From contig CAZNZM010000006.1 in the NCBI GenBank assembly GCA_964577555.1, forward strand, positions 4,093 through 68,092: DNA of 64,000 nucleotides, read 5' to 3'. Below, piece after piece: positions 2,107 to 36,242 of this stretch. How positions within the stretch are numbered: position 1 is the stretch's first letter; each line of letters opens with the position of its first letter. Source of the stretch: an uncultured archaeon (lineage in GTDB: Archaea > Iainarchaeota > Iainarchaeia > Iainarchaeales > Iainarchaeaceae). The position numbers and the translations under genes were made by a program. Below the pieces are notes generated by a model, which saw only the letters and a list, made by a program, of their open reading frames with translations, did no database searches and was not told where the DNA came from.

Positions 2107-2520
2107 TGTTAAACCATTGATTTTGAAACAGTATTTTTTTTATAAGCTGTTTTTTGCGGCATTTTTTTAGACATTTTTTTTGTTTGTCTTTAGTTTTGTT
2201 TGGCTTTTTTGTTTTTTTGTTTGTTTTTTTTGAATTATTTTTTTGCTTGGTATTTTTTTGTTTGAAACTTTGTTTTTTTTGTGAGCCGTTTTTTTTATTA
2301 TTGTTTTTTTTGTGAGTTGATTTTTTTTATTTTTTTAATTTAACTTGTTTTTTTTGAGCAGTTTTTTTTAGTTTTGTTTTTTTGTTTTTATTTGTTTTTT
2401 TTGGCAAATCTGTTTTTTTTGCCACCTATTTTTTTTAATTGAAATTTGTTTTTTTTTGCGAAAAAATTTTTCGAATTGTGATTTTTGTTTATTTTGCAGT
2501 TTTTTTGTTTTTTACCTGTT
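2101..2520. repeat. T-tract-rich modular intergenic repeat region (copy 1)
   Basis: Runs of T7-9 separated by short GC-containing words (gtgagccg, gtgagttga, gagcag, ggcaaatc). Contains the module ttttttttgaattattttttt at ~2232 and gcggcatttttttagaca. Confidence 0.6.
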
Positions 2521-5540: not shown

Positions 5541-5990
5541 ATTTATTTTTTGCGTTGCTTTTTTTTTAGTTTAAAATAAATACAAATTATTTTTTTGTCT
5601 TTGGCTTACTTTTTTTTGCGAAAGATTTTTTTTGTTGCTTCTTTTTTTTAGTCGGATTTTGTTTTTTTTGGTGAGCCATTTTTTTAGACAATTTTTGTTT
5701 TTTTTTGTTTGAAGTTTTGTTTTTTTTTCATTTTTTTGTGAGCAGTTTTTTGATGTTTTTTTGTCAGATTTTTTCTTTTTTTTGTTTTTTTGATTCAGAA
5801 TTAACTATTTTTTGCGATACGATTATTTTTTTTGTATTTTTTGTCAAAAACTTTTTTGTTGTTTTTTGGTCAATGCAAGAAATGCCAATAAATTTCCATG
5901 CAAACAAATAAATAGCCTGTAAACCAACTATTATTTGTTAAATAATTTTGATTAATTAATGGATTAATTAAATGTTTTTTTTGTCGTGGT
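5541..5990. repeat. T-tract-rich modular intergenic repeat region (copy 2)
   Basis: Same architecture as copy 1. Contains ggtgagccatttttttagacaatttttgttt (5670-5700), almost identical to 21621-21650, and gtgagcagttttttg. Confidence 0.6.
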
Positions 5991-5993
5991 TGC

Positions 5994-10517: not shown

Positions 10518-10651
10518 ATAAATTAAAAAACAAACTATTGTTATAAGACTTTAATTAAAAAAATTTACCTTAATTGCCTAAAAGTTACTTCCAGAAAGCT
10601 TTAGAGTTGTTAATAATTGTTTATTAAAAAGTATTTCATTAATAATTAATT

Positions 10652-11356: not shown

Positions 11357-11492
11357 CACTTAGAATTTTTTTGTGTTGAATAATTATTTTAAGAATAAAA
11401 TTTTGTATTTTGTAAAAAGAATTTCTAAAATAGTTTTTTTGTTTGTTTATTATTTTGTTAAAAAATTTGATTAATCAGCCAATTGCCAATAA

Positions 11493-12374
11493 TTATATTG
11501 GGCCTAATTCTTCCACATCTTCTATGCAACTTTGCGCTTCTTTTCCAGCTTTGTAGCACAATTGTTTGTTTCCAGTGTTGTAGGCTATCCATGCTATACA
11601 ATTGTCTCTTGTTTCAACCAGATTTTCACAAATTTCAGGATTATTTGTTGTCAACGCGATTTCGAAAAAACAATTTTCTTTTATTTGTGGAATTCTTACT
11701 TTATTACACAATGAAGGTGAATTTGTGTCGGTTGCAACAGAATAATAACAATAATTGTCTAAGGTCATTATATTTTGGCACAATTCAGAATTATTGTCAA
11801 ATATTGCTTGTACACAAAGCCTTCTGTCATCGCCTTCAGCACAATTATTGGGGTTTTTCGTTTTATATGCTTCATAACATTGCCTTACTTCATAATCCCC
11901 CCAACTGCAAAGACTTGCATCGCCGCTATTTATTGCTACATCAATATAGCATTGTGAAACTCCAAATTTTACGTTTTCACAATACGATTTTTCCCCTGTT
12001 AATTGGGCTATACGCATAAAACAATCACTTCTGTCAGTAATGTCATTTATACTGGAACACCCGGCAGGGTCTCCACTTATTGCAGCATATGTCAAATAAC
12101 AATTGTCCCTTGTTTCAATTGACTTTGCAAGGCAATCCGAGAGTTTTATGGGAATAAAATAATTGAAGTCTTTTGGTTTTTCGTTTCTGATTTGGGCTAA
12201 AGGCGCTTCATCCATTAAATATTCTTCCAAAGGATATTCGTCCCCGTTAACTTTTACGGTTTTTTCATAAGAAGGAATAGGATTTACTTTTGGCTGGTTT
12301 ATAAAAAAAATTATTCCCAAAACCAAAACAAGAATTATTGGCACCGCCAGGAAAATCATCAATTGTTTATTCAT
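11493..12374 (-). CDS. secreted cysteine-rich tandem-repeat protein
   Basis: Signal/TM segment MNKQLMIFLAVPIILVLVLGIIFFI, then about 10 repeats of a ~19-aa unit with two conserved Cys (…LC.x(8-10).RDNCY…A…), e.g. ETRDNCYLTYAA, TDRSDCFMRIAQ, ETRDNCIAWIAY. Confidence 0.6.
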   Translation of the reverse strand: MNKQLMIFLAVPIILVLVLGIIFFINQPKVNPIPSYEKTVKVNGDEYPLEEYLMDEAPLAQIRNEKPKDFNYFIPIKLSDCLAKSIETRDNCYLTYAAISGDPAGCSSINDITDRSDCFMRIAQLTGEKSYCENVKFGVSQCYIDVAINSGDASLCSWGDYEVRQCYEAYKTKNPNNCAEGDDRRLCVQAIFDNNSELCQNIMTLDNYCYYSVATDTNSPSLCNKVRIPQIKENCFFEIALTTNNPEICENLVETRDNCIAWIAYNTGNKQLCYKAGKEAQSCIEDVEELGPI

Positions 12375-12596
12375 GCTATAAAATTGGATTTTTCGTTTAA
12401 TAAACTTATTTATTTCAATAAAAATTTCTGTCTAATTTATTATGACTCTTTCTTTTAGAATTGGATTTTAAATCATGTTTGATTGACTGATTTGTCAAAT
12501 AACAGCTCCAAAATTGTTTTTTTTCAGTTGCAAATAAAATAATCTTTTTTAATGTCCTGTTTTTTTTTGCTTTGAATGAAACGCAAAATATGATTT

Positions 12597-13340
12597 TTAT
12601 GTTATAACCGGCGCTTTGTTTTCAAACTTTTCAGCGTTGTCCTTTGTTTGCTGCAATCTTTGTAATTGCTCTAAAAACTGCTTCTCAACTTCGCGCGCTT
12701 CATCAATCAAAGGTTGCACATCCAATTCCAAACCAAGTATTTCATTAAGCTTTTTCAAAACTTCCGCCGCAGCCTTGTAATCCGCAGAAAGATTTACATT
12801 TGCAAGTATTGAAATTGCTTTTATGTTATATTTTCTCAATTCAAGCAGTATAAGTGCGGTTATTCCTGTTGTTACACCTTCGCTTATTTCATTTAACCCA
12901 TATTTTTTAAGCAGTGGTTTTGAAAGTTCGTTTGCTGCAATTCCATATATGATATGGCTTTTCGGAGTGTCGCCATGGGCGTTGACCCCTGACAAAGAAA
13001 TAAGTTCCACTATTCCTTTTTCTTTTATCCAATCAGCTGTTTTTTTTGCCATTACATAAGTGCCTTCTTTTGGCAACACTTGCTCAGAAATCAATACTGC
13101 TATTTTCTTTTTTTTATCCGCATAAATTCTGGCTGGTCTTACAGGCATGCTGTCCTGTACCCTTATAATAGGAGAAAATAAATTTGAATCAATATATCCA
13201 ACTTCCTCAAATTTTTTCTTTTCCACGAGGTACTTTGCGGCGATAGTTCCAACTAAACCCATTCCTGGAAAACCTTCAATCAAAACATAATCTTTAAAAT
13301 TATTCTTTTTGTACTCTACAAAGTTTGCTTCAATCTTCAT
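12597..13340 (-). CDS. PAC2-family protein (proteasome assembly chaperone 2-like, PbaA/PbaB-type)
   Basis: N-terminal motif VLIEGFPGMGLVGTIAAKYL plus the overall ~250-aa architecture are typical of the archaeal PAC2/DUF75 family. Confidence 0.6.
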   Translation of the reverse strand: MKIEANFVEYKKNNFKDYVLIEGFPGMGLVGTIAAKYLVEKKKFEEVGYIDSNLFSPIIRVQDSMPVRPARIYADKKKKIAVLISEQVLPKEGTYVMAKKTADWIKEKGIVELISLSGVNAHGDTPKSHIIYGIAANELSKPLLKKYGLNEISEGVTTGITALILLELRKYNIKAISILANVNLSADYKAAAEVLKKLNEILGLELDVQPLIDEAREVEKQFLEQLQRLQQTKDNAEKFENKAPVIT

Positions 13341-13468
13341 AAAAAATCTTTTTTACATTTAGGTGGTTAAAACTTATATACTTTTCCACGATGTTTTTGC
13401 TTTTGCCGAAATTTTTTTTGAGCGAAAATAATTTATATTTGTTAAACCCATTATTCAGTCCGATAAAT

Positions 13469-14128
13469 ATGGTTGATATAACTACGGCATTACAACAAAC
13501 AGTATTAGATCCAATAGTCCAGTCTGTGAATTCGTTTATTTTGGCGATTCCCAGTCTGCTTGCGGCCATACTCATAATTATTTTAGGGTATTTGGTCGGA
13601 AAAATAATCGGCAAATTTGTTCAACAAGTTCTTGAAACAGCCAAGTTGGACGAGATGGTTGAAAAATTTTCAAAATCCCATCCTCTTGGCAAAGTAACCA
13701 TTGCAGAACTTTGCGGCAAATTGGTTATGTGGTACATAGTCATAGCTTTTGTCGCAAATGCAGCTGAGGTAGTTCAGCTTGGTGTTATTGCAAGGCTTCT
13801 TTTGGAGTTCTCTTTATGGGCTCCGCATCTCATAGCTGCAATAATAATAATGGCAATAGGTTTGTTCGTTTCAGAACTTGCAAAAAAAGAAGTGAGTTCT
13901 TTCAAAGCTGAAAGCTCTAAACTCCTTGGCTTAGGAGCAAAATATTTTGTAATAATTTATTTTGCTGTTTTAGCTCTTGGAGAATTGGGGCTTAATGTGA
14001 CTTTTGCCCAAAACACAATTCTTGTTGTTATTGCAGGCGTAATGCTTACGTTTGCAATCGGGTTTGGCTTGGCTTTGAAAGATCACGCTGAAGAAATATT
14101 TGCCGAAATAAAAAAAGCAATGAAATGA
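13469..14128 (+). CDS. membrane protein with repeated conserved TM-helix (MscS-N-terminal-like) motifs
   Basis: The ORF track starts at 13391, but ATG 13469 (MVDITTALQQ) is the likely start. Repeated segments of the type LIGKIIGKFVQQVLE / AIGLFVSELAKKEV resemble the PF05552 TM_helix repeat. Confidence 0.5.
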   Translation: MVDITTALQQTVLDPIVQSVNSFILAIPSLLAAILIIILGYLVGKIIGKFVQQVLETAKLDEMVEKFSKSHPLGKVTIAELCGKLVMWYIVIAFVANAAEVVQLGVIARLLLEFSLWAPHLIAAIIIMAIGLFVSELAKKEVSSFKAESSKLLGLGAKYFVIIYFAVLALGELGLNVTFAQNTILVVIAGVMLTFAIGFGLALKDHAEEIFAEIKKAMK

Positions 14129-14152
14129 AAACCTTTAACATGGTTTTAATTT

Positions 14153-14190
14153 TAAGGGGGGCACCCCTTACTTTTTCTTTTTTTTTGTCT
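14153..14190 (+). terminator. hairpin plus oligo-T terminator-like element
   Basis: TAAGGGG-GGCA-CCCCTTA forms a 7-bp perfect stem, followed by ctttttcttttttttt, 25 nt downstream of the stop at 14128. Confidence 0.35.
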
Positions 14191-14289
14191 TTTGCTCTTT
14201 TTTTATTTCTTTTGTTCCATATAGCTTTTTTTTGAGCCAATTTTTTTTTAATAGTTTTTTAATTTGAATTAAATTTGTTTTTTGATTTT

Positions 14290-15114
14290 TTAGAACCCTT
14301 TTATAAAAAAATAAACAATAAAACCTGCTATTAAAAGAATAATCGCATATAAAAATGATTTTTTTGGCCTGCTCTCCTGAAAGCCTAAAAAAATTGAAGA
14401 TATAATGGCAAACTCCGCTATGTAAATAATGCTTCCAATTTCTGCAGCATTCAGAAGTTCTTTTCTTGTAACTTCGTTTGCTCCTATTCCCAATTCATTT
14501 ATTCCTGAAAAATCCATTTTGAAAACCATGCTTGTAACCATTGCAAACACAAACGGAACTATTATGCATGATGCTATTATTGTGTATTTTTGTAGCGACA
14601 TTGCAGCCATTCTTTCCCTTGTTATTGAATTTGTTTCAATGAAATCCTCGGCTGTTTCCCTGAATGCTTTGCTCATATCCGCGCCAGATTTTATTGAATT
14701 TATTATCATTCCAATAGACCTTGAAAGCCCTTTTGAAGAATTTCTTTCAGAAATTTTTTCTAGTGCTTCTTCAGGCGGCATTCCTAATTCAATTCTGTTT
14801 TTCGCCAGATTGAATTCTTTTTTTAATGGGCCATTAGAGTTGTTTGATATAAAATCAACTAGTTTGTCTATTCTTGCATTGTCAGGAATTGAAGATGCAA
14901 GAAGCAACATGTCTGGAATTTCATCTTCTATTTGTCTTTGTCTTTCTTCCTCAGCCAATTGAAACTTCAGATGCTTTAATGCCAATGGAATAAATAATGC
15001 AATTATTGAAAGCATGATTATTTTTTCGCTTTTAAATATTTCAATCCCGATAATTAAGAATGCTATTGAAAATAAAACACCAGAAATAATTTCGTCCTTG
15101 CTTGTTTTGAACAT
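14290..15114 (-). CDS. type II secretion system F-domain membrane protein (TadB/FlaJ-half-like), pilus assembly platform
   Basis: 274 aa. TM helices flank a cytoplasmic helical domain, the T2SSF topology. Directly downstream of a second T2SSF gene and the ATPase. Confidence 0.7.
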   Translation of the reverse strand: MFKTSKDEIISGVLFSIAFLIIGIEIFKSEKIIMLSIIALFIPLALKHLKFQLAEEERQRQIEDEIPDMLLLASSIPDNARIDKLVDFISNNSNGPLKKEFNLAKNRIELGMPPEEALEKISERNSSKGLSRSIGMIINSIKSGADMSKAFRETAEDFIETNSITRERMAAMSLQKYTIIASCIIVPFVFAMVTSMVFKMDFSGINELGIGANEVTRKELLNAAEIGSIIYIAEFAIISSIFLGFQESRPKKSFLYAIILLIAGFIVYFFIKGF

Positions 15115-15115
15115 T

Positions 15116-15847
15116 TCAATTTCCTCCTAAAGGAGCAATCGATTTTATGTAAAGCAATATTGCGCAGTCAATACAAGGAAATATGATGCTTGTCAAAGCC
15201 AAAATCATTTTTCCATTTATTGAAAAATCAATGAATGAACTTCCCACTATTATGAATGAAATTGAAAGCGCAGGAACCACTGCCGAAATTACTATAAATA
15301 ATAGTGAAAGTGCGGACATTTTTCCAGTGTATTCTTTTATTTCCGCTTTTTTTCTACTTAACAATTCCATTGCAAGTTTTTTTATGCCGGAACCTTGTTT
15401 TTTTCCTCCGTGTTCATAAATTGAAATTACTTGTGCAAAAGCCCTTTTCACAATTTTTGAATTTGATTTTGCGGCAAATTTGGCTAGCATTTCTTTAAGC
15501 GGTTCACCGGACGCTTTTGCGGATGAAATGCAATTTCCAAGCAGTATTGAAAATTTTCCGTATTTTGATTCGGCAAGCCTTTCCAAAGCTCTGTCCGGCG
15601 GAATGCCTATGTTAAGTTCAAGGCTAAGTTGCATAAGTGCAAAAGGAAGTTGTGCTTCAATTTCTGCTGCATCACGCCTTAATTTTCTTTCAGTTTCTGT
15701 AAAAAAGTAAAAGAATGTTGTTGTCATGCAAATTATTCCTATAATTATTGATGTGTAAATATCGTCAAAGAATAATTCGGACGCCAAAAACCCAATTATA
15801 AAAGCCAGAATTGATTTTTTGAAAGAGCTTTCGATTTTCAAATTCAT
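15116..15847 (-). CDS. type II secretion system F-domain membrane protein (TadC/FlaJ-half-like)
   Basis: 243 aa. N-terminal TM, soluble helical domain (ALERLAESKYGKFSILLGNCISSAKASGEPL), then two C-terminal TM helices. Confidence 0.7.
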   Translation of the reverse strand: MNLKIESSFKKSILAFIIGFLASELFFDDIYTSIIIGIICMTTTFFYFFTETERKLRRDAAEIEAQLPFALMQLSLELNIGIPPDRALERLAESKYGKFSILLGNCISSAKASGEPLKEMLAKFAAKSNSKIVKRAFAQVISIYEHGGKKQGSGIKKLAMELLSRKKAEIKEYTGKMSALSLLFIVISAVVPALSISFIIVGSSFIDFSINGKMILALTSIIFPCIDCAILLYIKSIAPLGGN

Positions 15848-15853
15848 TTTTTT

Positions 15854-17308
15854 TCAACCTTCATTGTATTGTTGTATTGAATTGAAGTATTCTTCCCCAG
15901 TTTTTCCTCGTAATGTTTCCAAGAATTTGCTTCTTTTTTCAATCTCATTTATTATTTCTTTTTTCGGCATGTTGAAAGAATTTGATATTTTTTCAATCGT
16001 TTTTTGTCCAATTGATTTGATTTTGAAAGATTTTTTTTTGAAGTCATAAGAAAAAATTTTTTTTATACAGATTCCATTTTTTGTCATTAAAGGCTCCGCT
16101 ATTTCAATTAGTTTTCTTTGTTCGTAATGTCTTCCTTCTTGGTTAACCGTCCATCTTTTTTGTGTCAACACCAAATCCAATGCTGCTACATCCATTGGCA
16201 TTGCCCCTAATTTGATTAACCTTGTTATCGCTTCATTTGCTGATTGTGCATGGAATGTTGAATAAGTTCCTTTTCCTTGCCCGGCAAGCAAGGAATCTAT
16301 ATAAGCCAGTGTTTCTTTTTTGTCCCTTATTTCCCCTACAATAACCCTGTCTGGTCGCATCCTTAAAGTGTTTGTCACTAGCTCAGCCATGCCTATTTCT
16401 ATTCCTTCAGCGGTGTTCATTCTAATACAATGCTGGTGCATGATTGATATTTCCGGTGTTTCTTCAACTATTACAATTCTTTCGTTTTCCGGAATGAAAT
16501 TCATTATACTGTTTAACAAAGTTGTTTTTCCAGAACCTGTATTGCCGCACACCATTATTGAGCAATCTGATTGTATTGCAAGCCAAAGGAAAGCCATTTG
16601 TTCAGAGGAAGCGGAGCCAAGCCTTATGATTTCTGTAGGAGTTGGCACGTTTGCCCTGAATTTTCTTATCGTAACAGATGGTCCGGAATTAGTTATTGGG
16701 TTCATGCATGCATTGAGTCTTGAACCGTCTGGAAGGCTGGCATTGATTTTGGGTTTCATAAGAGTCACCCGCCTGCCAAGGCTTGAACCAAGCGCATTAA
16801 CTATGTTTTTGACTTCTTCTTCGCTTGAAAAGTAAATATTGGATTCAAGCCATCCGAAATTCGAGTCAAAGACATAAATTGGTTTGGCTCTGCCAAGCCC
16901 TATGACTGCTATTTCTTCCAGCAACGGATCGCAAAGAAAAACACCAAGTATTCCATGAGAAGAAACCATTTCCGAAAGGCATCTTTTTAAGTAAATTTTT
17001 TGGTTGTCTTCAAGGTCCAGCCATTTTGATTTGCAATATTGTATAAAAAATTCGCTTGCGCCTTTTTCTGCAACAATTTTTCCCGAATCCCTGAATACTT
17101 GCAATGCCGATTTCAGAAGCCTTGCTTCGTCCAAGCTTAGACAAGGAATTGATTTTTGAATGTAAATAGTTTTTCCGTTTCTAAGCCTTGTTATGTCCCT
17201 TTCTTCAGAAGACGAAACCACTATTTCTATTTCTTCTTCCGCAGGACTGAAGACCCGCCAACCAAGTATTTTCTCTATTTCTGCTGATTCAAAATCCGAC
17301 AAACCCAT
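15854..17308 (-). CDS. FlaI/TadA/VirB11-family secretion ATPase (type IV pilus/archaellum assembly ATPase)
   Basis: Walker A motif VCGNTGSGKTTLLNSIMNFIP. The Asp box, Walker B region (RPDRVIVGEIRD) and His box-like GTYSTFHAQSANEA are all conserved. Confidence 0.85.
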   Translation of the reverse strand: MGLSDFESAEIEKILGWRVFSPAEEEIEIVVSSSEERDITRLRNGKTIYIQKSIPCLSLDEARLLKSALQVFRDSGKIVAEKGASEFFIQYCKSKWLDLEDNQKIYLKRCLSEMVSSHGILGVFLCDPLLEEIAVIGLGRAKPIYVFDSNFGWLESNIYFSSEEEVKNIVNALGSSLGRRVTLMKPKINASLPDGSRLNACMNPITNSGPSVTIRKFRANVPTPTEIIRLGSASSEQMAFLWLAIQSDCSIMVCGNTGSGKTTLLNSIMNFIPENERIVIVEETPEISIMHQHCIRMNTAEGIEIGMAELVTNTLRMRPDRVIVGEIRDKKETLAYIDSLLAGQGKGTYSTFHAQSANEAITRLIKLGAMPMDVAALDLVLTQKRWTVNQEGRHYEQRKLIEIAEPLMTKNGICIKKIFSYDFKKKSFKIKSIGQKTIEKISNSFNMPKKEIINEIEKRSKFLETLRGKTGEEYFNSIQQYNEG

Positions 17309-17356
17309 ACTATTACGTCAATCAACGAAATATTTTTATTTGGTTTGTGCTTTTAG

Positions 17357-17722
17357 TCACCATTTCAATTTATCCCCTATTTTTATTTTGTTCCCCAATT
17401 TTTTTGGCAATTCAATAAAATATTTGGCTGGTTTTTTTGGAGTATAATTTAAAGTCCATGGTTTTAATGTTGCTTTGTCCACCACTTTTTTGTTTTCGTC
17501 AAGAAAGATAATGTCTATTGGAAAGAAAACAAACAACATATGAACGCTTGCCCTAATCCTTGTTTTGTAGCCAAGTGTAAAAATAAGTGCATAATCAAAA
17601 TTTTTTTCACTCTCCAACATTAATCCTTTAAATTTTTCAAAAAAAGTTTTTGCAAACTTGGTCTTTTTGCAAATAATTTTTCCATTTGCGCCTGAAAATT
17701 TTAGAGACATTTCAGCCCTCAA
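17357..17722 (-). CDS. DUF192 (UPF0127/COG1430) family protein
   Basis: 121 aa with characteristic GLM...ALIF...PIDIIFLDENKKVV...ELP..G.KIGDK..W motifs. Confidence 0.7.
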   Translation of the reverse strand: MRAEMSLKFSGANGKIICKKTKFAKTFFEKFKGLMLESEKNFDYALIFTLGYKTRIRASVHMLFVFFPIDIIFLDENKKVVDKATLKPWTLNYTPKKPAKYFIELPKKLGNKIKIGDKLKW

Positions 17723-17725
17723 AAA

Positions 17726-17953
17726 TCAGTTTTTCTTTTCTTTACGCTCCCTTATAATCTCAATTTTAGGAATTTTTATTTCTTCAAGCAAGTCTGAAGG
17801 CCTTATTGCACCACTATTTTGTTCTCTCTCTATCTCTTTTCTTATCCCATCTATTTCTTGCATTTTAACCTGCATTTCCTCAAGTATTTTTTCCATTGCT
17901 TTTCTCCTTTCTTGAAGCTCTAAAGTATTTCCTTTACCCATATACCTTAACAA
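17726..17953 (-). CDS. small charged coiled-coil protein, hypothetical
   Basis: 75-aa K/E/R-rich ORF immediately upstream of and co-oriented with the DUF192 gene. Weak call. Confidence 0.3.
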   Translation of the reverse strand: MLRYMGKGNTLELQERRKAMEKILEEMQVKMQEIDGIRKEIEREQNSGAIRPSDLLEEIKIPKIEIIRERKEKKN

Positions 17954-18039
17954 AATGCGTTGCTGAATAAATAACTTTTGGATTGGCCACTATAACAATT
18001 TTTTTTGCAATTTGTTTCTGTCAAATGATTTTTTTGCCA

Positions 18040-18250
18040 TGAAGAGCCAAAAGTGTTTTTTTGCTGGTTGTTTTTTTGTTCTGCAAGCCGTATTTTTTTT
18101 AGCAATTTTATTTTTTTAAGTTTTGATTTTTTTTGTTTTGTCTTGGCTTTTTTGAGTCTTTTTTTGTTGGTTTTTTTTCACGTTTTTTTTATAGTTTCTC
18201 GTTCCAAACTAAAAGATAACATTATAAAATTTGTTTTATGCTTAGGATCT
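18040..18250. repeat. T-tract-rich modular intergenic repeat region (copy 4)
   Basis: Contains gttctgcaagccgtattttttttagcaatttta and the same T8 / GC-octamer pattern. Confidence 0.5.
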
Positions 18251-18309
18251 TTGGTAATCCTGCAAATTAGCTAGGTTGCAGGGTTGGATTTATTGCAAAT
18301 TAAAGTTAT

Positions 18310-18437
18310 AGCCCCGTCGTCTAGCGGCTAAAGAAATTCAGTTTAGTAAATTTTTTAACAATTTGAAAAATTGATTTCTGTCGAAAGGATGCGAGCCTCT
18401 GGAGCTCGAAACCCCGGTTCGAATCCGGGCGGGGCTA
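18310..18437 (+). tRNA. tRNA-Gln (anticodon CUG) interrupted by a ~55-nt non-canonical intron in the D-arm region
   Basis: Perfect 7-bp acceptor stem AGCCCCG/CGGGGCT, discriminator A. T-arm CCCGG-TTCGAAT-CCGGG. Anticodon stem CGAGC/GCTCG with loop CTCTGGA (CTG at 18399-18401). The D-stem 5' half GTCT and D-loop AGCGGCTAA are followed by ~55 nt (about 18335-18389) that must be removed to restore the 3' D-stem. Confidence 0.65.
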
Positions 18438-18779: not shown

Positions 18780-19139
18780 TTGGGCATGGTAATAAGGAAT
18801 GAAATTTTTCCACTACGAGCAAAATTGGGCAACAAGACTCAGTTGGAACTTTCTGTTGAGATAGAGAACGAAGATGACAAATCAAAAAAAATAAGCCTTG
18901 AAATAGAATTGCCCAAAGAAGCAACTTTTAATCCATTATGGACTAACACCATTTACAAGAAAAAATTTGATAATTTTAAGCCTTTTGAAAAATTTAAAGT
19001 CAAAATTCCGATTTACCTTTCAAGAATGGCTGAAGCAGGAAATTACAAAGGAAACATAATTGTTTGCGAGCATTTTAACGAATTCGGAGTTGTTGAAAGG
19101 GTGTTTAAGAAGGAAATCCTTTTCAGAATTGTCAATTAA
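18780..19139 (+). CDS. hypothetical protein
   Basis: 119-aa ORF downstream of the Zn-ribbon ORF. No recognisable family. Confidence 0.35.
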   Translation: MGMVIRNEIFPLRAKLGNKTQLELSVEIENEDDKSKKISLEIELPKEATFNPLWTNTIYKKKFDNFKPFEKFKVKIPIYLSRMAEAGNYKGNIIVCEHFNEFGVVERVFKKEILFRIVN

Positions 19140-19175
19140 ATTCCCAAAGTTTTTTGAACTTACTTAATTTTTTAA

Positions 19176-20258
19176 TTATTTAAAATCCAAAATGCTTTTT
19201 TGTTTTTCTGGCGCTGATAACCCAGATATTCCGATTCCAAATCTTCTTGCAACAAAACCTGGTTTTTCCGAAAAAAATTCTTCTATCAAATTTTTGGAAA
19301 CTTTGATTATATCTTCGCTTTTTTGTGATGCTTTTTCAATTGTTTTACTTCTTGTGAAAGATTCCAGTTTGTTTGAAATAATGGTAATTGAAATTGTTTT
19401 GAAAGTTTTTCTCAATTCAATGCATTTTTTTTCAAGTTCAAAAGAAATTGTTGGCAAATATTCAAAAATTTTTTGAGGGTTTGAAGTATTTTCTTTTAGT
19501 GTAATAATTCTTGAATATTGTTGTTGTTCCTTTTCCTCTACAATGCTGTCATCAATCCCATTGGCTTTTTCATGCAACATTTTTCCTTTTTTTTCCCCAA
19601 AAAGTTCTACAAGTTTTGGCAATTGAGTTTTTGCTAATTGAGTAATTGTTTTTATTCCTTGCTTTTCAAGTTCTTCAACTGTTTTTGGCCCCACTCCTTG
19701 CAAATCTGAAATGCTTTTGGTTCTTAAAAATTCTTGTACATAGCTTGGAATAATAACCGTGAGACCATTAGGTTTTTTTGTTTCTGAAGCCATTTTTGCT
19801 ATCAATTTGTTAGGACCTATTCCAATAGAACAAGTTAATAATTCTTTTTCAAAAACCTCTTTTTTTATTTCCTTGGCAAGTTTTTCCGCATCAACAAAAC
19901 TTCCTTTAACAGACTCTGAAATATCCAAATATGCTTCATCAATGCTTGTTTGTTCAAATTTTTCACCTTTTTGTCTTATTATGTCCATTACTCTGTCTGA
20001 AACTTGTTCATAGTATTGCCTGTCTGCTTTGAGCAAAACCAATTCTTTTGATTTTTGTTTTGCAATGGATATTGGCATACCAGCCTTTATACCCAAAGCC
20101 CTTGCCATGTAATTTGAAGTTGCTATTGCACCTGAAAATTCGCTTCTTCCAGAAAACATGCAAACCGCAATCGGCTTGTTTTTAAGCTCCGGCGACCTTA
20201 TTTCTTCAGCTTGCGCATAAAAATAGTCCAAGTCAATATGCATTATAACTCGTTGCAT
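19176..20258 (-). CDS. dinB: Y-family DNA polymerase IV (DinB/Dpo4)
   Basis: MHIDLDYFYAQAEEIRSPELKNKPIAVC is the ImpB/UmuC catalytic N-terminus, and ...SIGIGPNKLIAKMAS matches the thumb/HhH region. The track ORF extends to 20336, but the start is more likely ATG 20258 (MQRVIMHIDLDYF) or 20243. Confidence 0.85.
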   Translation of the reverse strand: MQRVIMHIDLDYFYAQAEEIRSPELKNKPIAVCMFSGRSEFSGAIATSNYMARALGIKAGMPISIAKQKSKELVLLKADRQYYEQVSDRVMDIIRQKGEKFEQTSIDEAYLDISESVKGSFVDAEKLAKEIKKEVFEKELLTCSIGIGPNKLIAKMASETKKPNGLTVIIPSYVQEFLRTKSISDLQGVGPKTVEELEKQGIKTITQLAKTQLPKLVELFGEKKGKMLHEKANGIDDSIVEEKEQQQYSRIITLKENTSNPQKIFEYLPTISFELEKKCIELRKTFKTISITIISNKLESFTRSKTIEKASQKSEDIIKVSKNLIEEFFSEKPGFVARRFGIGISGLSAPEKQKSILDFK

Positions 20259-20293
20259 GAAATAGTGTTGCTTTAATAGTTTTTTAAATGCAA

Positions 20294-21448
20294 TCAAGTG
20301 AGAATGAATTTTATGGCTTCTGGAAATAGACGCCAAAGTGAAGGAGTTGCCATTGCTTTTTCTAAAAACTTTGAAGGTTTGTCCATGTCGCCATAATTTG
20401 AGAGAAATTCCCCAACATTAGCCTTATTCATTCTTCTTATTAGTTCGTCTATTTGATTTTCGTTTTTATTGTTTATGAATTGCCTTATTTTCCAATGCAA
20501 TATAAGTTCATGGTTTATTTCTGAAAGATATTTTTCATAATTTTCCAAAGGTTCTTTGTCTTTGAAAAATTTGTGAACTGCGTCGCCCGCTATGTTGCCT
20601 GCAAGCATTCCTATTATTATTCCCCCGCCAGTTGTCGCTTTTGTTTGAAACGCGGCATCCCCAACAAGCAAAATATTGTCTTTCACTATTTTTTTTAGAG
20701 GTTCTCCGCATGGAATCAGTTTGCTACACATATCACAAAATTCGCCTGAAATGTTTTTGTCTTTTGTAAAAATATCAAAGTCACGCCTTATGTTTCCAGA
20801 AGTGCTTGCAAGCCCTACACGTGCCTTTTCCTCGTTTTCCGGAACAACCCACGCAAAATAATTTTTTGCATAATCCCCAAAAAAAACTTGCACATAATTC
20901 TTGTCAAAATTGCCTTTTGCCACAACTTGATAGGCATGGACATAATTTTTTATGTCAGTGTTTATTCCGATTATTTTTCTTGTTTTGGAATTCACTCCAT
21001 CTGCACCTACCAAAACCTTGGTTTTAAGAAGCTCTCCCCTGCCTTTGTGTTCAACAAAAACCGTTTCATTTCTAATGTCTATCAATTTGGTTTCAGTCTT
21101 TATTTTCACACCTGATGCAATTGCTCTTGACGCCAAAGCCCTGTCAAATTCACCTCTATTTATTACATAAGCTACTGTTTCGCTTTTCTTCACTTCAAGC
21201 ATTTCCTGTCCAGGAGAAAAAATTCTGGCTCCTCGGATTTTATTCACTAAAGTGTCTTCGACTTCTTTTCTTATTCCAAGTTCACTAACCCCTGAAGCGC
21301 TTATCAATCCAGTACAAGCTACAGGTTCGCCTATTTTTGGATGCTCTTCTATTACTATTGTTTGCCATCCTCTTTCTTGTATCCTTTTTGCAGCCGCAAG
21401 CCCTGCAGGTCCAGCTCCTGCAACACAAACCATTGTTTGTTCAGCCAT
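20294..21448 (-). CDS. geranylgeranyl reductase family FAD-dependent oxidoreductase (digeranylgeranylglycerophospholipid reductase-like)
   Basis: N-terminal FAD-binding motif VCVAGAGPAGLAAAKRI...VIEEHPKIGEPVACTGLIS and the overall ~385-aa GGR architecture. Confidence 0.85.
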   Translation of the reverse strand: MAEQTMVCVAGAGPAGLAAAKRIQERGWQTIVIEEHPKIGEPVACTGLISASGVSELGIRKEVEDTLVNKIRGARIFSPGQEMLEVKKSETVAYVINRGEFDRALASRAIASGVKIKTETKLIDIRNETVFVEHKGRGELLKTKVLVGADGVNSKTRKIIGINTDIKNYVHAYQVVAKGNFDKNYVQVFFGDYAKNYFAWVVPENEEKARVGLASTSGNIRRDFDIFTKDKNISGEFCDMCSKLIPCGEPLKKIVKDNILLVGDAAFQTKATTGGGIIIGMLAGNIAGDAVHKFFKDKEPLENYEKYLSEINHELILHWKIRQFINNKNENQIDELIRRMNKANVGEFLSNYGDMDKPSKFLEKAMATPSLWRLFPEAIKFILT

Positions 21449-21451
21449 TAT

Positions 21452-21770
21452 TTATTCAAACTGATAAAACTATAAAAATTCAACTATTCCCAGGATTTAA
21501 AAATAAATTTGTTGAAAAACAACGAAATAGTTTTTTTTTGAATTATTTTTTTATTTTGTTTTTTTGTTTTTTTTGTTTTGCAAGCCATTTTTTTTAGTTT
21601 TTTTTTGAATTGTTTTTTTTGTGAGCGTTTTTTTTAGACAATTTTTGTTTTGTTTTATTTTTGGAGTTTTGTTTTTTTGTGAGCCGTTTTTTTGCCATTT
21701 TTTTGTGAACTTGTTTTTTTGTTAACGATTTTTTTGCTTTTAGGGAATATTTTATTTTTTTTATGACATT
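21452..21770. repeat. T-tract-rich modular intergenic repeat region (copy 5)
   Basis: Contains ttgttttgcaagccattttttttagtttttttttgaattgtttttttt (~21570-21625), near-identical to 35960-36015, and gtgagcgttttttttagacaatttttgttt, shared with 5671-5700. Confidence 0.65.
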
Positions 21771-23336
21771 TTAATTTTTCTTGTTTTCTTTATAGCTTTT
21801 TTTGGATATGTTGTTTTTTTCTTGCTTATTATTTAAAGCCGATGTTTTATTTTCTTTTATTTCCGTTTTTTTTCTAAAATCCATTTTTTTGCCTAAAATT
21901 AACGCCCACGCTGTTAAGCATGCAACCAGCACTATTATAAATAACAAAATTTCGTTTGCATAATTTTTTTTCTCTTCATCAATTGAAACATGAACCGAAT
22001 AGTTTTCAGGTTTTGTCTCAACTTCTTGGTTTTTAGTTTCCGTGCTTTCATTAAGTTTCATAACAATTGAATGCTCGTTTGAGTTTCCAGCCATGTCTGT
22101 CGCAATTGCCTTTACTTCAATCAAACCATTTTTTGGCTCAGCCGAAAAATCAAGAGAATAAAAGATGTTTTGGCCGTTTTCTTCAGACTCCACAAATTCC
22201 ATGTTTCCTTTTGAAACGCCGTTTGCAAAAAGTTCAATTTTGTTTAATCCCAATCCAGCATCATAAGCATTTGCAACAACTTTTATTTTTGCCGATTTTT
22301 CTCCGCTTTCTTTAATTGTTCCAAAAATTTTTATGTCCGGTTTTGCTGTATCAAATTCAAAATCCTTTTCGTAAGTACACTCGGTTCCATCAGGTTTTTT
22401 TACAAATAACACTAAGGTTCCTGTTCCATAAGAATTGATTGGAATATTATATTCTGCTTCCGTTTCTTTATTAAAAAACTTGTTTTCAAAAATTTTTTCA
22501 AGCTCTTTTTTTTGCATTGAAATGAAAAGCGTTGAATTTTCCACTGGAACGTCTGAAACAATTTTAAATTTCAAGGTGCCTGTATATGTTGTTTGAGGTG
22601 TTGAGAATTCGATTTTTTCAACACAATTTTTTTTATCGTTCAAGAATTTTTTTATCGGGCTTATTACTCCATAGTTTCCTGCGTTGTCTATTGCTTGTAT
22701 TCGGTAATAATAAGCTATTCCTTGCGTAAGTTTGTCAGTGTCAATGTAATTTGTTTCTTTTACTCCGAAAATTTTTTTTACTCCAATATCAGTTGGACCG
22801 AACTCTTTTTTGTTTATGTATTGCTTGACACTCCTGTAAATATTGTATTCTTTTATCCCTGAAACGTCCTCCGGAGGCTTCCACAATATAAGCACGCCTT
22901 CGTTGTTTTTTGAAAATGTTATATCTTGGACTTGTTCAGGCCCAGTCCTGTCAATCATTAATTTGTATGTTGAAGTCCCAAAACAATTCTTTGTTTCGTT
23001 GCAAGCTTCCAAAATAAAATAATTTTCTCCCTCTGGCAAATTTTCAATTAAAACCGAATTAGTTTTTATGTTTGTCCACTTGTCTTCACCAGGTTTTTCA
23101 GATTTTGATATTTGATAACGGTAATATGTGGCTTCGGTTACCTTGTCCCAATTGAATTTTCCAGCAGTATTTCTGGTCCAAGCGTCTTGAGGGTTGGTAT
23201 CTGAATAAATTTTTATTACAACATTTTCTGCTGTTGCAAAGACAAAAAAAGATTGAAAAATAATAAAACAAAAAAAAGCAATCACTAATTCTTTCCATTT
23301 TCTTGCAAGCATATTACCCAATTTGAAAAGGCACAA
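21771..23336 (-). CDS. surface protein with signal peptide, beta-rich extracellular domains (FN3-like) and C-terminal TM anchor plus basic tail
   Basis: N-terminal hydrophobic signal (IAFFCFIIFQSFFVFATA). C-terminal ...ILLFIIVLVACLTAWALILGKKMDFRKK... Internal beta-strand-rich repeats. Confidence 0.6.
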   Translation of the reverse strand: MCLFKLGNMLARKWKELVIAFFCFIIFQSFFVFATAENVVIKIYSDTNPQDAWTRNTAGKFNWDKVTEATYYRYQISKSEKPGEDKWTNIKTNSVLIENLPEGENYFILEACNETKNCFGTSTYKLMIDRTGPEQVQDITFSKNNEGVLILWKPPEDVSGIKEYNIYRSVKQYINKKEFGPTDIGVKKIFGVKETNYIDTDKLTQGIAYYYRIQAIDNAGNYGVISPIKKFLNDKKNCVEKIEFSTPQTTYTGTLKFKIVSDVPVENSTLFISMQKKELEKIFENKFFNKETEAEYNIPINSYGTGTLVLFVKKPDGTECTYEKDFEFDTAKPDIKIFGTIKESGEKSAKIKVVANAYDAGLGLNKIELFANGVSKGNMEFVESEENGQNIFYSLDFSAEPKNGLIEVKAIATDMAGNSNEHSIVMKLNESTETKNQEVETKPENYSVHVSIDEEKKNYANEILLFIIVLVACLTAWALILGKKMDFRKKTEIKENKTSALNNKQEKNNISKKSYKENKKN

Positions 23337-35744: not shown

Positions 35745-36242
35745 GTTAAATAATATTTTTCAATACACATTAAAAATACACAGTTGGATTTTTTTTTGAT
35801 AAAATAAAACTTTATTTTTTTGTCTTTGGCTTGGTTTTTCAAGCCGATTTTATTTTTTTTCAATTGAAATTCAATTTTTTTTATTAGCCAAATTTTTGTT
35901 TTTTTTTGTTTTGGTTTTGCGAGCTGTTTTTTTGTCATTTTTTTTTGCGTTTTGTTTTTTTTTTGTTTTGCAAGCCATTTTTTTTAGTCATTTTTTTTTG
36001 AATTATTTTTTTTGTTTTGGTTTTGCGAGCTGTTTTTTTTGTCTTTGGTTTTTTCTTATTTTATTTTTTTAGTTTTGATTTTTTTTGTTTGTTTTTTTGC
36101 AAGTTTATTTTTTTGTCATTTTGGCTTGACTTTTTTCTTTTTTTGCCAACTTGGTTTTTTTTACACGCCTTTTTGTTGTTTTAGCTTTATTAATTTGTTT
36201 TATATTGTTTTTGTCATTGGAATTTTTGTTGTTATGAAAACT
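35745..36242. repeat. T-tract-rich modular intergenic repeat region (copy 6)
   Basis: Two gcgagctgttttttt modules, gcaagccattttttttagtcatttttttttgaattatttttttt (35960-36015) and further T8 / GC-word units, in a divergent promoter region. Confidence 0.65.

What the first reader, a model, noticed from the sequence alone, without database searches (positions are those of the whole stretch)
21452..21770. Strand-invariant, T-tract-rich modular repeat family fills six intergenic regions
The six regions are 2101-2520, 5541-5990, ~14190-14289, 18040-18250, 21452-21770 and 35745-36242. Each is built from T7-9 runs alternating with 6-9-nt GC-containing words that fit a GYRAGCYR consensus (gtgagccg, gcaagcca, gcgagctg, gtgagcag) and are often followed by AG. 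Whole modules recur almost verbatim: ttgttttgcaagccattttttttagt..tttttttttgaatt.tttttttt at ~21570-21625 and ~35960-36015; gtgagc.tttttttagacaatttttgttt at 5671-5700 and 21621-21650; ttttttttgaattattttttt at 2232, 21540 and 36000. The T-rich strand is the + strand in every copy, whether the flanking genes are convergent, divergent or tandem, so the elements are not simply oligo-T terminators or promoters of the neighbouring genes. I do not recognise this as a known archaeal element. It is not a CRISPR array, an ORB or a described MITE. Candidate explanations are a dispersed non-autonomous element, a family of U-rich small RNAs, phased A/T-tract DNA-bending or chromatin-organising sites, or binding arrays for a protein recognising the GYRAGCYR octamer.
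Basis: seen in the sequence. Interest (0 to 1): 0.7.

Follow-up and report, generated by a model that had tools for sequence, protein, structure and literature searches.

The report
Same-strand T-tract satellite arrays between genes
Six gaps between genes in this tiny uncultured archaeon (DPANN, Diapherotrites) are filled with fast-evolving arrays of 7-9-T runs that all point the same way, are missing or different in its closest relatives, and are best read as an expanding DNA satellite built from terminator-like T-tracts rather than a conserved functional element.

Summary
Six intergenic regions hold 81 runs of T7 or longer and no A7+ run, always T-rich on the + strand, in all four flanking-gene arrangements. 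Three independent assemblies of the same strain reproduce arrays 3, 4 and 6 and the start of array 5 at 99.995-100% identity, so this is not an artefact.

The contig is a 33% GC metagenomic Diapherotrites (DPANN) archaeon. A sister strain (~87-88% nucleotide identity) lacks arrays 5 and 6. It has only a ~50-bp rudiment of array 4, a three-fold longer array 3, and an unalignable array 2. Relatives with 46-55% GC have none.

Modules of 34-66 nt are shared between non-orthologous arrays, more than a word-shuffled null allows.

- There is no 10.5-bp phasing.
- There is no RNA structure.
- There are no inverted-repeat ends or target-site duplications (TIR/TSD).
- GYRAGCYR fits only about 8% of the words.

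Best reading (confidence ~0.5): a lineage-specific, hypervariable satellite. It grows from T-rich seeds by duplication and by template switching or ectopic conversion at T-run microhomology. One polarity is fixed by a strand-asymmetric, probably replication-linked process. The side-effects would be one-directional stacks of oligo-T terminators and histone-refractory spacers.

Whether polarity tracks the replichore cannot be tested here.

The parts
2134..2506 (+). Array 1. It has 22 T6+ runs (20 of T7+) and lies between convergent genes 1282-2106(+) and 2512-3252(-). It contains T8-GTGAGCCG-T8 at 2274-2295 and T8-GAATTA-T7 at 2224-2244.
   Evidence: The orthologous site in the sister strain was not recovered.
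5546..5867 (+). Array 2. It has 21 T6+ runs and lies between tandem + genes 5000-5539 and 5994-10517. The promoter-proximal 5868-5993 is non-array and conserved.
   Evidence: The sister strain (L208/L209) also has an array here in the same polarity, but it does not align, while the flanks are about 87% identical.
14178..14283 (+). Array 3. It has 6 T6+ runs and follows a GC hairpin (about 14155-14172) after gene 13391-14128(+). It is convergent with the T2SSF gene 14290-15114(-).
   Evidence: It is 100% identical in the Logan contig L211. The sister strain has about 370 bp and about 22 runs at the same site.
17999..18190 (+). Array 4. It has 11 T6+ runs and lies between the start of the minus-strand gene 17726-17941 and the promoter of an intron-bearing tRNA-Gln.
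   Evidence: It is 100% identical in L211. Window 17982-18211 is replaced by about 58 bp with 2-3 short T-runs in the sister strain.
21531..21762 (+). Array 5, the reported finding. It has 14 T7+ runs and lies between the stop of the fn3-domain gene 21771-23336(-) and the promoter of the geranylgeranyl reductase gene 20294-21448(-).
   Evidence: The first ~70 bp are identical in L002, whose contig breaks inside the array. Window 21511-21749 is absent from the sister strain, where the IGR is 110 bp against 322 bp.
35789..36162 (+). Array 6. It has 20 T6+ runs and lies between divergent genes 34122-35744(-) and 36236-36908(+, a GT2 glycosyltransferase). It includes a 34-nt perfect internal duplication (35900-35933 and 36006-36039).
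   Evidence: It is present in L213 at 99.995% identity. Window 35795-36210 is replaced by 40 bp with two T-runs in the sister strain L212.
21567..21622 (+). The module shared with array 6 (35957-36015): T8-GTTTTGCAAGCCA-T8-AG(TCA)-T9-GAATTR-T8. The match is 59 nt at 93%.
   Evidence: Its score of 81.8 bits exceeds the null maximum of 56.
21613..21678 (+). The module shared with array 2 (5663-5726): T8-GTGAGCS-T7/8-AGACAATTTTTG... The match is 66 nt at 88%.

Best explanation
**What it is.** The arrays are a lineage-specific, hypervariable intergenic satellite. They are built from modules of the form T7-9 run plus a short, mostly G-initial word.

**How it grows (proposed).**
- Arrays nucleate at pre-existing T-rich intergenic seeds. 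These are ordinary oligo-T terminator or spacer sequence.
- They grow by slipped-strand or unequal duplication of multi-unit blocks.
- They exchange blocks between loci by template switching or ectopic gene conversion. The T-runs would supply the microhomology.
- This happened in a sublineage that drifted to 33-36% GC.

**Why one polarity (proposed).** The whole window lies in one domain of uniform strand asymmetry. A strand-asymmetric, probably replication-linked, process therefore generates or tolerates only one polarity. Copying between direct arrays preserves that polarity.

**Consequences rather than selected purposes (proposed).**
- For rightward transcription, each array is a stack of 6-22 oligo-dT termination signals. 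Leftward transcription sees none.
- Each array is a stretch of poly(dA:dT)-rich DNA that archaeal histones disfavour.

**Shown here:**
- the anatomy of the arrays;
- that they are real and stable within the strain;
- presence, absence and length polymorphism between strains;
- absence from higher-GC relatives;
- module sharing between loci, and internal duplications;
- lack of helical phasing, RNA structure and transposon ends.

**Inferred, not shown:**
- the slippage and template-switch mechanism;
- the replication link to polarity;
- the terminator and histone-exclusion effects.
For: **Turnover between strains.** The sister strain is ~87-88% identical in the flanks. Arrays 5 and 6 are absent there, array 4 is a ~50-bp rudiment, array 3 is three times longer, and array 2 does not align. 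The rudiments already carry T-runs on the same strand.

**Lineage restriction.**
- Relatives with 46-55% GC have 76-112 bp intergenic regions and no arrays.
- A scan of 185,579 species genomes with the T7-GYRAGCYR-T7 unit gave only isolated hits and no array.

**Growth by duplication.**
- Tandem Repeats Finder (TRF) reports higher-order periods of 31-100 nt at 1.9-2.6 copies.
- A perfect 34-nt duplicate lies in array 6, and a 40-nt 95% duplicate in the sister strain's array 3.

**Exchange between loci.**
- Shared modules are 59 nt at 93% (arrays 5 and 6, both absent in the sister strain), 66 nt at 88% (arrays 2 and 5), and 34 nt at 97% (arrays 4 and 6).
- A 45-nt 91% match links non-orthologous arrays of the two strains.
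- The top scores exceed the shuffled null.
- Orthologous arrays are no more alike than non-orthologous ones.

**Polarity context.**
- The strand component of GC skew at 4-fold sites is -0.19 in both halves of the window.
- It has the same sign, but is weaker, in five of six syntenic relative loci.

**Terminator-like units.**
- A single T7-9 run follows the tRNA and several genes in this organism.
- T5 is the minimal archaeal terminator (PMC2253867).
- More U-tracts give stronger termination (PMC8716108).

**No sequence-level constraint.** Promoter-proximal segments and gene ends are conserved, while array interiors are not.
Against: - **T-run length.** Lengths are tightly peaked at 7-8, with none above 10, in both strains despite complete sequence turnover. 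The base after a run is G in 71% of cases. This could reflect selection or a specific enzymatic process rather than neutral slippage.
- **Genome economy.** A streamlined DPANN genome spending 2.5% of this window on neutral DNA is unexpected.
- **Composition.** Arrays are G>C (+0.29) on the + strand, whereas neutral sites are C>G. Array composition is therefore not simply the background mutational skew.
- **Short-term stability.** Arrays are identical across three samples of the strain, so they are not hypermutable on short timescales.
- **Untested links.** No direct evidence exists for the replication link. Uniform polarity of six related arrays could be local copying or chance (p = 0.03). No transcript data are available.
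Confidence: 0.5

Rival explanations
1. The arrays are selected polar transcription barriers. Each would be a stack of oligo-dT terminators, read with aCPSF1/FttA (the archaeal termination factor), that blocks rightward transcription only. It would insulate convergent partners, downstream promoters and the tRNA from read-through and antisense RNA polymerase. If C>G marks the lagging strand, rightward transcription is head-on to the replication fork, so the arrays would specifically stop head-on transcription.
For: - T-runs of 7-9 are this organism's own terminator signal.
- T5 suffices in vitro, and the number of U-tracts scales with termination efficiency and aCPSF1 binding (PMC2253867, PMC8716108).
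- Arrays 1-3 start right after + strand genes. Array 3 begins just after a GC hairpin downstream of the + gene's stop codon.
- Run length is narrowly 7-8.
- Polarity is uniform in a window with uniform C>G neutral-site skew.
Against: - Arrays 4-6 have no co-oriented gene upstream.
- The minus-strand genes that abut arrays 1, 3 and 5 get no U-tract from them.
- The sister strain does without arrays 5 and 6, and with a rudimentary array 4, although it has the same genes.
- Ten to twenty terminators is far beyond the 2-4 seen in characterised archaeal terminators.
- Genes in the window show no co-orientation bias.
- Skew polarity in DPANN has not been calibrated.
Confidence: 0.17
2. The arrays are chromatin or nucleoid spacers. 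Poly(dA:dT)-rich arrays would keep intergenic DNA free of archaeal histones or stiffen it, fixing nucleosome-depleted boundaries between transcription units.
For: - A/T-only oligomers are excluded from archaeal nucleosomes, and nucleosome-depleted regions sit upstream of ORFs (PMC3691661).
- Diapherotrites encode histones (PMC6136690).
- Arrays occupy spacer positions and leave the promoters intact.
Against: - Such a function is strand-symmetric and does not explain the uniform polarity.
- There is no helical phasing.
- The arrays are dispensable in the sister strain and absent in all higher-GC relatives.
- No histone gene was looked for in this window.
Confidence: 0.1
3. The arrays are a non-autonomous mobile or retro-copied element. 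On the minus strand they read as A-rich tails, which would fit a MITE/SINE-like sequence inserted by an enzyme encoded elsewhere.
For: - Presence or absence differs at orthologous sites.
- Near-identical modules occur 14-16 kb apart.
- The family is restricted to one sublineage.
Against: - There are no terminal inverted repeats: only 4 of 785 inter-array matches are on the opposite strand.
- There is no target-site duplication at the three mapped junctions.
- There is no discrete unit length.
- 'Empty' sites carry T-run rudiments, which favours in-situ expansion.
- No transposase or reverse transcriptase was noticed in the window, and only 10 of its proteins were scanned against Pfam.
Confidence: 0.08
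4. The arrays are protein-binding arrays. A DNA-binding protein would recognise GYRAGCYR or related words, or a single-stranded-DNA/RNA-binding protein would recognise T/U-runs spaced about 15-16 nt apart. The role could resemble a centromere, partition site or priming site.
For: - GYRAGCYR is 26-fold enriched in the arrays. GTGAGC occurs 5 times in the arrays and never elsewhere on the + strand.
- The same words recur in the sister strain's arrays.
- Unit spacing is modal at 15-17 nt.
Against: - Only about 8% of the words fit the octamer, giving 0-3 sites per array.
- The words are heterogeneous, and their recurrence is explained by module copying.
- Spacing is not coherent.
- The arrays are dispensable in the sister strain.
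Confidence: 0.06
5. The arrays are genes for U-rich (+ strand) or A-rich (- strand) non-coding RNAs.
For: None directly. A few T8-ATAA stretches resemble TATA boxes.
Against: - There are no Rfam matches.
- Folding z-scores of +0.44, -0.57 and +1.81 are no better than shuffles.
- Internal T7-9 runs would terminate any + strand transcript within about 15 nt.
- There is no sequence conservation between strains.
Confidence: 0.03

Closest known systems
Archaeal oligo-dT intrinsic terminators, including tandem T-stretches (for example the Pyrococcus furiosus histone gene with four consecutive oligo-dT signals, and the multiple U4-tract terminators of Methanococcus maripaludis)
   Same: - The units are runs of at least 5 T on the non-template strand, several in a row.
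- Single T7-9 runs follow the tRNA and several genes in this very window.
- Arrays 1-3 begin right after + strand genes.
   Different: - There are 6-22 runs over 100-370 bp instead of 1-4.
- Half of the arrays lie where no co-oriented transcript should arrive.
- The neighbouring minus-strand genes get no terminator from them.
- The arrays are absent from close relatives that carry the same genes.
Minisatellite/VNTR-type hypervariable intergenic tandem repeats of prokaryotes
   Same: - Blocks are duplicated head to tail.
- Large length differences, and presence or absence, occur between strains at fixed loci.
- The location is non-coding.
   Different: - There is no single repeat unit. The units are a heterogeneous set of T-run plus word modules.
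- The same modules are shared among many loci.
- All loci have one polarity.
Mosaic extragenic repeat families (REP/BIME of enterobacteria and similar)
   Same: - The family is dispersed and strictly intergenic.
- It is built as mosaics of a few short motif types.
- It is variable between strains.
   Different: - There is no palindromic hairpin core.
- It is homopolymer-based.
- No associated RAYT-type transposase is known here.
- The host is an archaeon.
- Orientation is uniform, whereas BIMEs alternate.
Poly(dA:dT) nucleosome-excluding tracts and A-tract clusters
   Same: Homopolymeric A:T tracts are concentrated in intergenic DNA of an organism from a histone-encoding phylum.
   Different: - There is no 10-11 bp phasing.
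- The T-runs are confined to one strand.
- The tracts are interleaved with recurrent GC words.
- The arrays are lineage-specific expansions.
Strand-skewed oligomers tied to replication direction (Chi, KOPS and architecture-imparting sequences)
   Same: Polarity is uniform along a region of uniform replication-type skew.
   Different: - Those are short single motifs scattered through genes. These are 100-400 bp intergenic arrays.
- A link to replication is not demonstrated here.

Membership tests
Archaeal oligo-dT intrinsic terminator | A run of at least 5 T on the non-template strand | tested here: met
   130 runs of T6-T10 were counted in the arrays of the window and the sister strain, with a mode of 7-8. 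T5 is the minimal signal per PMC2253867.
Archaeal oligo-dT intrinsic terminator | Located immediately downstream of a transcription unit on the same strand | tested here: not met
   This is true for arrays 1-3 only. Arrays 4 and 6 lie between divergent starts. Array 5 lies between two minus-strand genes, with the T-runs on the wrong strand.
Archaeal oligo-dT intrinsic terminator | RNA 3' ends map to the T-runs | not testable with these tools
   No transcript data are available for this uncultured organism.
CRISPR array | Near-identical 23-47 nt direct repeats at regular spacing, separated by unique spacers | tested here: not met
   Units are heterogeneous, spacing ranges from 7 to 51 nt, and the only constant element is a homopolymer.
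MITE / non-autonomous transposon | Terminal inverted repeats and a discrete element length | tested here: not met
   Only 4 of 785 inter-array matches are on the opposite strand. Array lengths range from 106 to 374 bp.
MITE / non-autonomous transposon | Target-site duplication at filled versus empty sites | tested here: not met
   Junction alignments at arrays 4, 5 and 6 against the sister strain show no duplicated flank. The empty sites carry T-run rudiments.
MITE / non-autonomous transposon | Presence or absence polymorphism at orthologous sites | tested here: met
   Arrays 5 and 6 are absent in the sister strain, and array 4 is rudimentary there.
Phased A-tract (intrinsically curved DNA) cluster | A/T-tracts repeated in phase with the helix (10-11 bp) | tested here: not met
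   The periodogram of T-run starts has power 0.41 at 10.5 bp and 0.76 at 11 bp, against a background of about 1-2. Modal spacing is 15-17 nt.
Minisatellite / VNTR | Head-to-tail copies of a unit | tested here: inconclusive
   TRF finds periods of 31-100 nt at 1.9-2.6 copies with 76-90% matches inside arrays 1, 2, 5 and 6, and perfect 34-nt duplicates exist. No single unit spans an array.
Minisatellite / VNTR | Length polymorphism between strains at a fixed locus | tested here: met
   Array 3 is about 106 bp here and about 370 bp in the sister strain. Array 4 is about 190 bp against about 50 bp.
REP/BIME-like mosaic extragenic repeats | An imperfect palindrome able to form a stem-loop as the core motif | tested here: not met
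   Folding is no better than shuffles. Only one clear hairpin was seen, GGCTTG-N6-CAAGCC at about 35826-35843.
REP/BIME-like mosaic extragenic repeats | Association with a RAYT (Y1) transposase in the genome | not testable with these tools
   Only 64 kb of the genome is available.
Structured non-coding RNA family | Conserved secondary structure or an Rfam match | tested here: not met
   There are no Rfam hits at gathering threshold. Folding z-scores are +0.44, -0.57 and +1.81.
Poly(dA:dT) nucleosome-depleting element | Reduced histone occupancy over the tract | not testable with these tools
   Only the sequence prerequisite is met. Histones are reported for the phylum (PMC6136690), and A/T oligomers are excluded from archaeal nucleosomes (PMC3691661).
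Replication-oriented skewed sequence | Polarity switches at the origin and terminus | not testable with these tools
   The window has a single uniform strand asymmetry. No closed genome of the lineage was found.

The most novel reading that the evidence does not exclude
The arrays would be replication-oriented polar elements. Genome-wide, the T-rich strand would always be the C-rich (putative lagging) strand. The arrays would then act as one-way stacks of terminators that remove RNA polymerases travelling head-on towards the replication fork. Alternatively, they would mark orientation-dependent priming or slippage hot spots. Either way, this would be a previously undescribed way for a minimal archaeal genome to manage conflicts between replication and transcription.
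Probability: 0.12. Interest if true: 0.8.

Novelty: new variant of a known kind. Interest (0 to 1): 0.45.

Why it matters
DPANN archaea are thought to have streamlined genomes with minimal intergenic DNA. This lineage has filled its longest intergenic regions with a fast-turning-over satellite. The satellite is made of the organism's own termination signal, and every array points the same way.

If the polarity follows replication, it would give a sequence-level handle on replication direction and on replication-transcription conflict in organisms that cannot be cultured.

If it does not, the arrays still have practical value:
- They are strain-level markers.
- They cause assembly breaks. Two Logan contigs and two JGI contigs end inside arrays.
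- They are a natural test set for how many oligo-T signals an archaeal RNA polymerase can read through, and in which orientation.

Tried and rejected
- **Assembly artefact.** Rejected. Three independent samples and assemblers give identical arrays.
- **Species-genome scan.** A scan of species genomes with T7-GYRAGCYR-T7 gave 73 isolated hits, mostly bacterial or coding. None lies in an array.
- **Metagenome scan.** A three-run family pattern gave four unrelated hits. The source contig itself is not in that collection.
- **Generic three-T-run pattern in viral contigs.** The family-specific unit gave three single hits there, which I did not inspect.
- **Phased curvature.** Rejected.
- **Structured RNA.** Rejected.
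- **CRISPR and MITE.** Rejected on anatomy.
- **Coding potential.**
  - Only short F-rich or K-rich ORFs occur in the arrays.
  - The TTG-start extension of 36012-36908 and the 65-aa ORF that JGI called inside array 6 look spurious.
- **Searching with array-derived peptides to reach other loci.** Considered and dropped, because gene callers had called almost nothing in the seven array instances seen.
- **Literature.** Searches for T-tract arrays in Diapherotrites or DPANN found nothing relevant.
- **Replichore test.** Not possible. Contig look-ups reach only regions syntenic with the window.
Full report
**Source and context**

The window is 64 kb of a 66.5-kb JGI metagenome contig (3300037501, Ga0394875_0000575). 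It is 33% GC.
- The geranylgeranyl reductase next to the finding has hundreds of homologues. Those that carry a name are annotated Candidatus Diapherotrites or 'archaeon'.
- The window also carries type IV pilus-type T2SSE/T2SSF (ATPase and membrane-platform) genes and a DinB-type (translesion) polymerase.
- It also carries many glycosyltransferase and sugar-nucleotide genes, and a tRNA with a long intron.
- I therefore treat it as chromosomal DNA of a DPANN archaeon.

**Check of the observation**

Counting homopolymers over the window gives 233 T7+ runs and 96 A7+ runs. Of the T7+ runs, 81 fall in six intergenic regions that contain no A7+ run at all.

From the first to the last T6+ run, the arrays span:
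- 2134-2506
- 5546-5867
- 14178-14283
- 17999-18190
- 21531-21762
- 35789-36162

Together they cover about 1.6 kb, or 2.5% of the window.
- There is no cluster of A-runs anywhere in the window.
- Every intergenic region longer than 250 bp is one of these arrays. The other 19 intergenic regions of 40 bp or more are 48-242 bp long and have 0-3 runs.
- The flanking genes are convergent (arrays 1 and 3), tandem on + (2), divergent (4 and 6) and tandem on - (5).

An all-against-all comparison of the arrays gives these matches:
- 59 nt at 93% between arrays 5 and 6
- 66 nt at 88% between arrays 2 and 5
- 34 nt at 97% between arrays 4 and 6
- several perfect 21-22-mers

As a null, I kept every T-run in place and shuffled the letters within each word. 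The best inter-array score never exceeded 56 bits in 100 trials. The observed scores were 81.8 and 61.9 bits, and the fourth-best observed score also beat every null.

- The words are 1-44 nt long, with a mode of 8-9.
- Only 8 of about 95 words in the window's arrays fit GYRAGCYR. The octamer is 26-fold enriched relative to the rest of the window, and GTGAGC occurs nowhere else on the + strand.
- The base after a T-run is G in 71% of cases. Run length is sharply peaked at 7-8.

**Not an artefact**

- Two contigs assembled independently from SRA run SRR12686701 are 100% identical to window 19099-21596 and 7726-18319. The second covers arrays 3 and 4 in full. The first ends inside array 5.
- A contig from a third sample (JGI 3300043177) differs by one base in 21.6 kb and contains array 6 in full.

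The arrays are therefore real, and they are stable within this strain.

**Comparison with relatives**

A sister strain was recovered from three further samples (L200, L201, L208, L209, L212). It is 85-95% identical in protein and about 82-89% in flanking DNA. The alignments break exactly at the arrays:

| Site | This window | Sister strain |
|---|---|---|
| Array 5 | 21511-21749 present | missing; IGR is 110 bp against 322 bp |
| Array 6 | 35795-36210 present | replaced by 40 bp carrying two T-runs |
| Array 4 | 17982-18211 present | about 58 bp with two or three short T-runs |
| Array 3 | about 106 bp | about 370 bp with about 22 runs |
| Array 2 | array upstream of the 1507-aa gene | array present, but interior does not align; the promoter-proximal 120 bp does |

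- All sister-strain arrays and rudiments have the same polarity and use the same vocabulary (GTGAGCCA, GCAAGCCG, GTCTTTTTTTTGGCTTGG).
- Orthologous arrays are no more alike than non-orthologous ones. For example, array 2 of this strain shares 45 nt at 91% with array 3 of the sister strain.
- More distant relatives have intergenic regions of 76-112 bp at the same sites and no arrays.
  - These relatives are 53-85% identical for the same proteins.
  - They have 46-55% GC.
- A scan of one genome per 185,579 species with the T7-GYRAGCYR-T7 unit returned 73 isolated hits, and none sits in an array. The metagenome and viral scans added nothing.

The family is therefore confined, as far as these data reach, to a low-GC sublineage. 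It turns over much faster than the surrounding genes.

**Tests of what the arrays could be**

- *Phased, curved DNA.* The periodogram of T-run positions is flat and shows nothing at 10.5-11 bp. Spacing is modal at 15-17 nt but not coherent. Rejected.
- *Structured RNA.* There are no Rfam hits. Both strands fold no better than shuffles, with z-scores of +0.44, -0.57 and +1.81. Not supported.
- *CRISPR or MITE.*
  - There is no constant repeat and there are no inverted ends: only 4 of 785 matches lie on the opposite strand.
  - There are no target-site duplications at three mapped junctions.
  - The 'empty' sites carry T-run rudiments, which looks like in-situ expansion. Rejected as such.
- *Binding array for the octamer.* There are only 0-3 sites per array. 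Weak.
- *Ordinary terminators.*
  - A single T7-9 run follows the tRNA and several genes, so this is the organism's terminator signal.
  - That fits the T5 minimal signal and the dose effect of multiple U-tracts known from Pyrococcus and Methanococcus (PMC2253867, PMC8716108).
  - Only arrays 1-3 lie behind a + strand gene.
  - The minus-strand genes next to arrays 1, 3 and 5 see A-runs.
  - In array 5, the fn3 gene's presumptive T5 terminator sits beyond the array.

The arrays are thus made of terminator-type units, but they are not the terminators of their neighbours.

**Evidence on origin**

- TRF finds higher-order periods of 31-100 nt at about two copies inside arrays 1, 2, 5 and 6.
- Array 6 contains a perfect 34-nt duplication. 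The sister strain's array 3 contains a 40-nt duplication at 95%.
- Arrays 5 and 6 are both missing from the sister strain, yet they share the longest module.

Sequence has therefore moved between loci 14 kb apart since the strains split. This pattern fits block duplication plus template switching or ectopic conversion, with the T-runs as ubiquitous microhomology. The mechanism is my inference. The data do not show it directly.

**Polarity**

I separated strand effects from coding-strand effects at fourfold-degenerate third positions.
- The strand component of GC skew is -0.19 (C>G on the + strand) in both halves of the window.
- It has the same sign, but is weaker, in five of six syntenic loci of relatives that lack arrays.

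The window therefore behaves as a single replichore-like domain, and the proposed test of whether orientation flips with the replichore cannot be made here.
- If the usual rule holds (leading strand G>C), the + strand is the lagging strand and rightward transcription is head-on to the fork. That rule is known from bacteria and some archaea and is not calibrated for DPANN.
- The arrays themselves are G>C (+0.29) and strongly T>A on the + strand. They are therefore not a simple product of the background skew.
- With six related arrays, uniform polarity alone is weak evidence (p = 0.03, and the arrays are not independent).

**Verdict**

The best-supported reading (about 0.5) is a lineage-specific, hypervariable satellite of T-tract modules. 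It expands from T-rich seeds and is homogenised between loci. A strand-asymmetric, probably replication-linked process would fix its single polarity.

Its likely physical side-effects are one-directional stacks of oligo-T terminators and histone-refractory spacers. Diapherotrites encode histones (PMC6136690), and A/T oligomers are excluded from archaeal nucleosomes (PMC3691661).

The main rival (about 0.17) is that the polar termination is itself the selected function. The remaining rivals are each at or below 0.1: a chromatin spacer, a mobile element, a binding array and a non-coding RNA.

It is a new variant of known kinds (intergenic satellites and oligo-T terminators) rather than a new category. 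It is interesting mainly because of the uniform polarity in a supposedly streamlined genome.

Noticed in passing
window 18309-18437 (+): A tRNA-Gln(CUG) is interrupted by an insert of about 50-60 nt on the D-loop side (roughly 18326-18385), which is not the canonical anticodon-loop position. ARAGORN and Rfam both miss it. ARAGORN calls tRNA-Gln once the insert is removed. The gene, including the insert, is conserved in the sister strain (L200 about 6290-6415) and is followed by T9.
   Followed up: partly
L206 (GC 52%), L207 (55%), L202-L205 (46-48%) versus the window (33%) and L200 (36%): Relatives whose geranylgeranyl reductase is 66-85% identical in protein differ by up to about 20 points in GC content. 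The window's sublineage has undergone a strong, recent AT shift, and the arrays occur only in it.
   Followed up: partly
window 1-64000, fourfold-degenerate sites: Neutral-site GC skew has a uniform strand component (C>G on the + strand, r = -0.19), independent of gene orientation. It has the same sign in five of six syntenic relative loci. This suggests the whole contig lies in one replichore.
   Followed up: partly
window 5994-10517 (+): A 1507-aa protein has no Pfam domain. It looks single-copy and is conserved at about 1500 aa among its hits, the named ones being Diapherotrites or 'archaeon' MAGs (41 hits, 29-90% identity). Its function is unknown.
   Followed up: no
window 21771-21970 (-) and 3249-4970 (-): Five T7+ runs continue into the 3' end of the fn3-domain gene, where they encode a Lys-rich C-terminal tail. 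The 573-aa ORF 3249-4970 has an extreme AT skew (about -0.5), eleven T7+ runs on the + strand and no Pfam hit. Homopolymer runs in this genome are therefore not restricted to non-coding DNA.
   Followed up: no
window 18262-18292 (+): A conserved hairpin (AATCCTGCAA-N11-TTGCAGGGTT) lies between the tRNA promoter-like TATA (about 18215-18230) and the tRNA 5' end. It is also present in the sister strain (L200 about 6440-6470).
   Followed up: no
L203/L204/L205 11147-11573: In a 48% GC relative, the 430-bp intergenic region after the reductase gene carries several T6-8 runs followed by G-initial GC words (TTTTTTTGCGGAAA, TTTTTTGTTTGCGAA). They lie on the same relative strand as the window's arrays. 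This may be a distant analogue or a coincidence.
   Followed up: no
L002 end, L200 end, L208/L209 starts: Short-read assemblies from four samples break inside these arrays. The family is therefore likely to fragment MAGs of this lineage and to be under-represented in databases.
   Followed up: partly
window 35741-35938 (-); L213 9807-10004: JGI called a 65-aa Lys-rich ORF inside array 6, overlapping the start of the 540-aa gene. The TTG-start ORF 36012-36908 also extends the GT2 gene 75 codons into the array. Both look like artefacts of stop-poor T-rich sequence.
   Followed up: no
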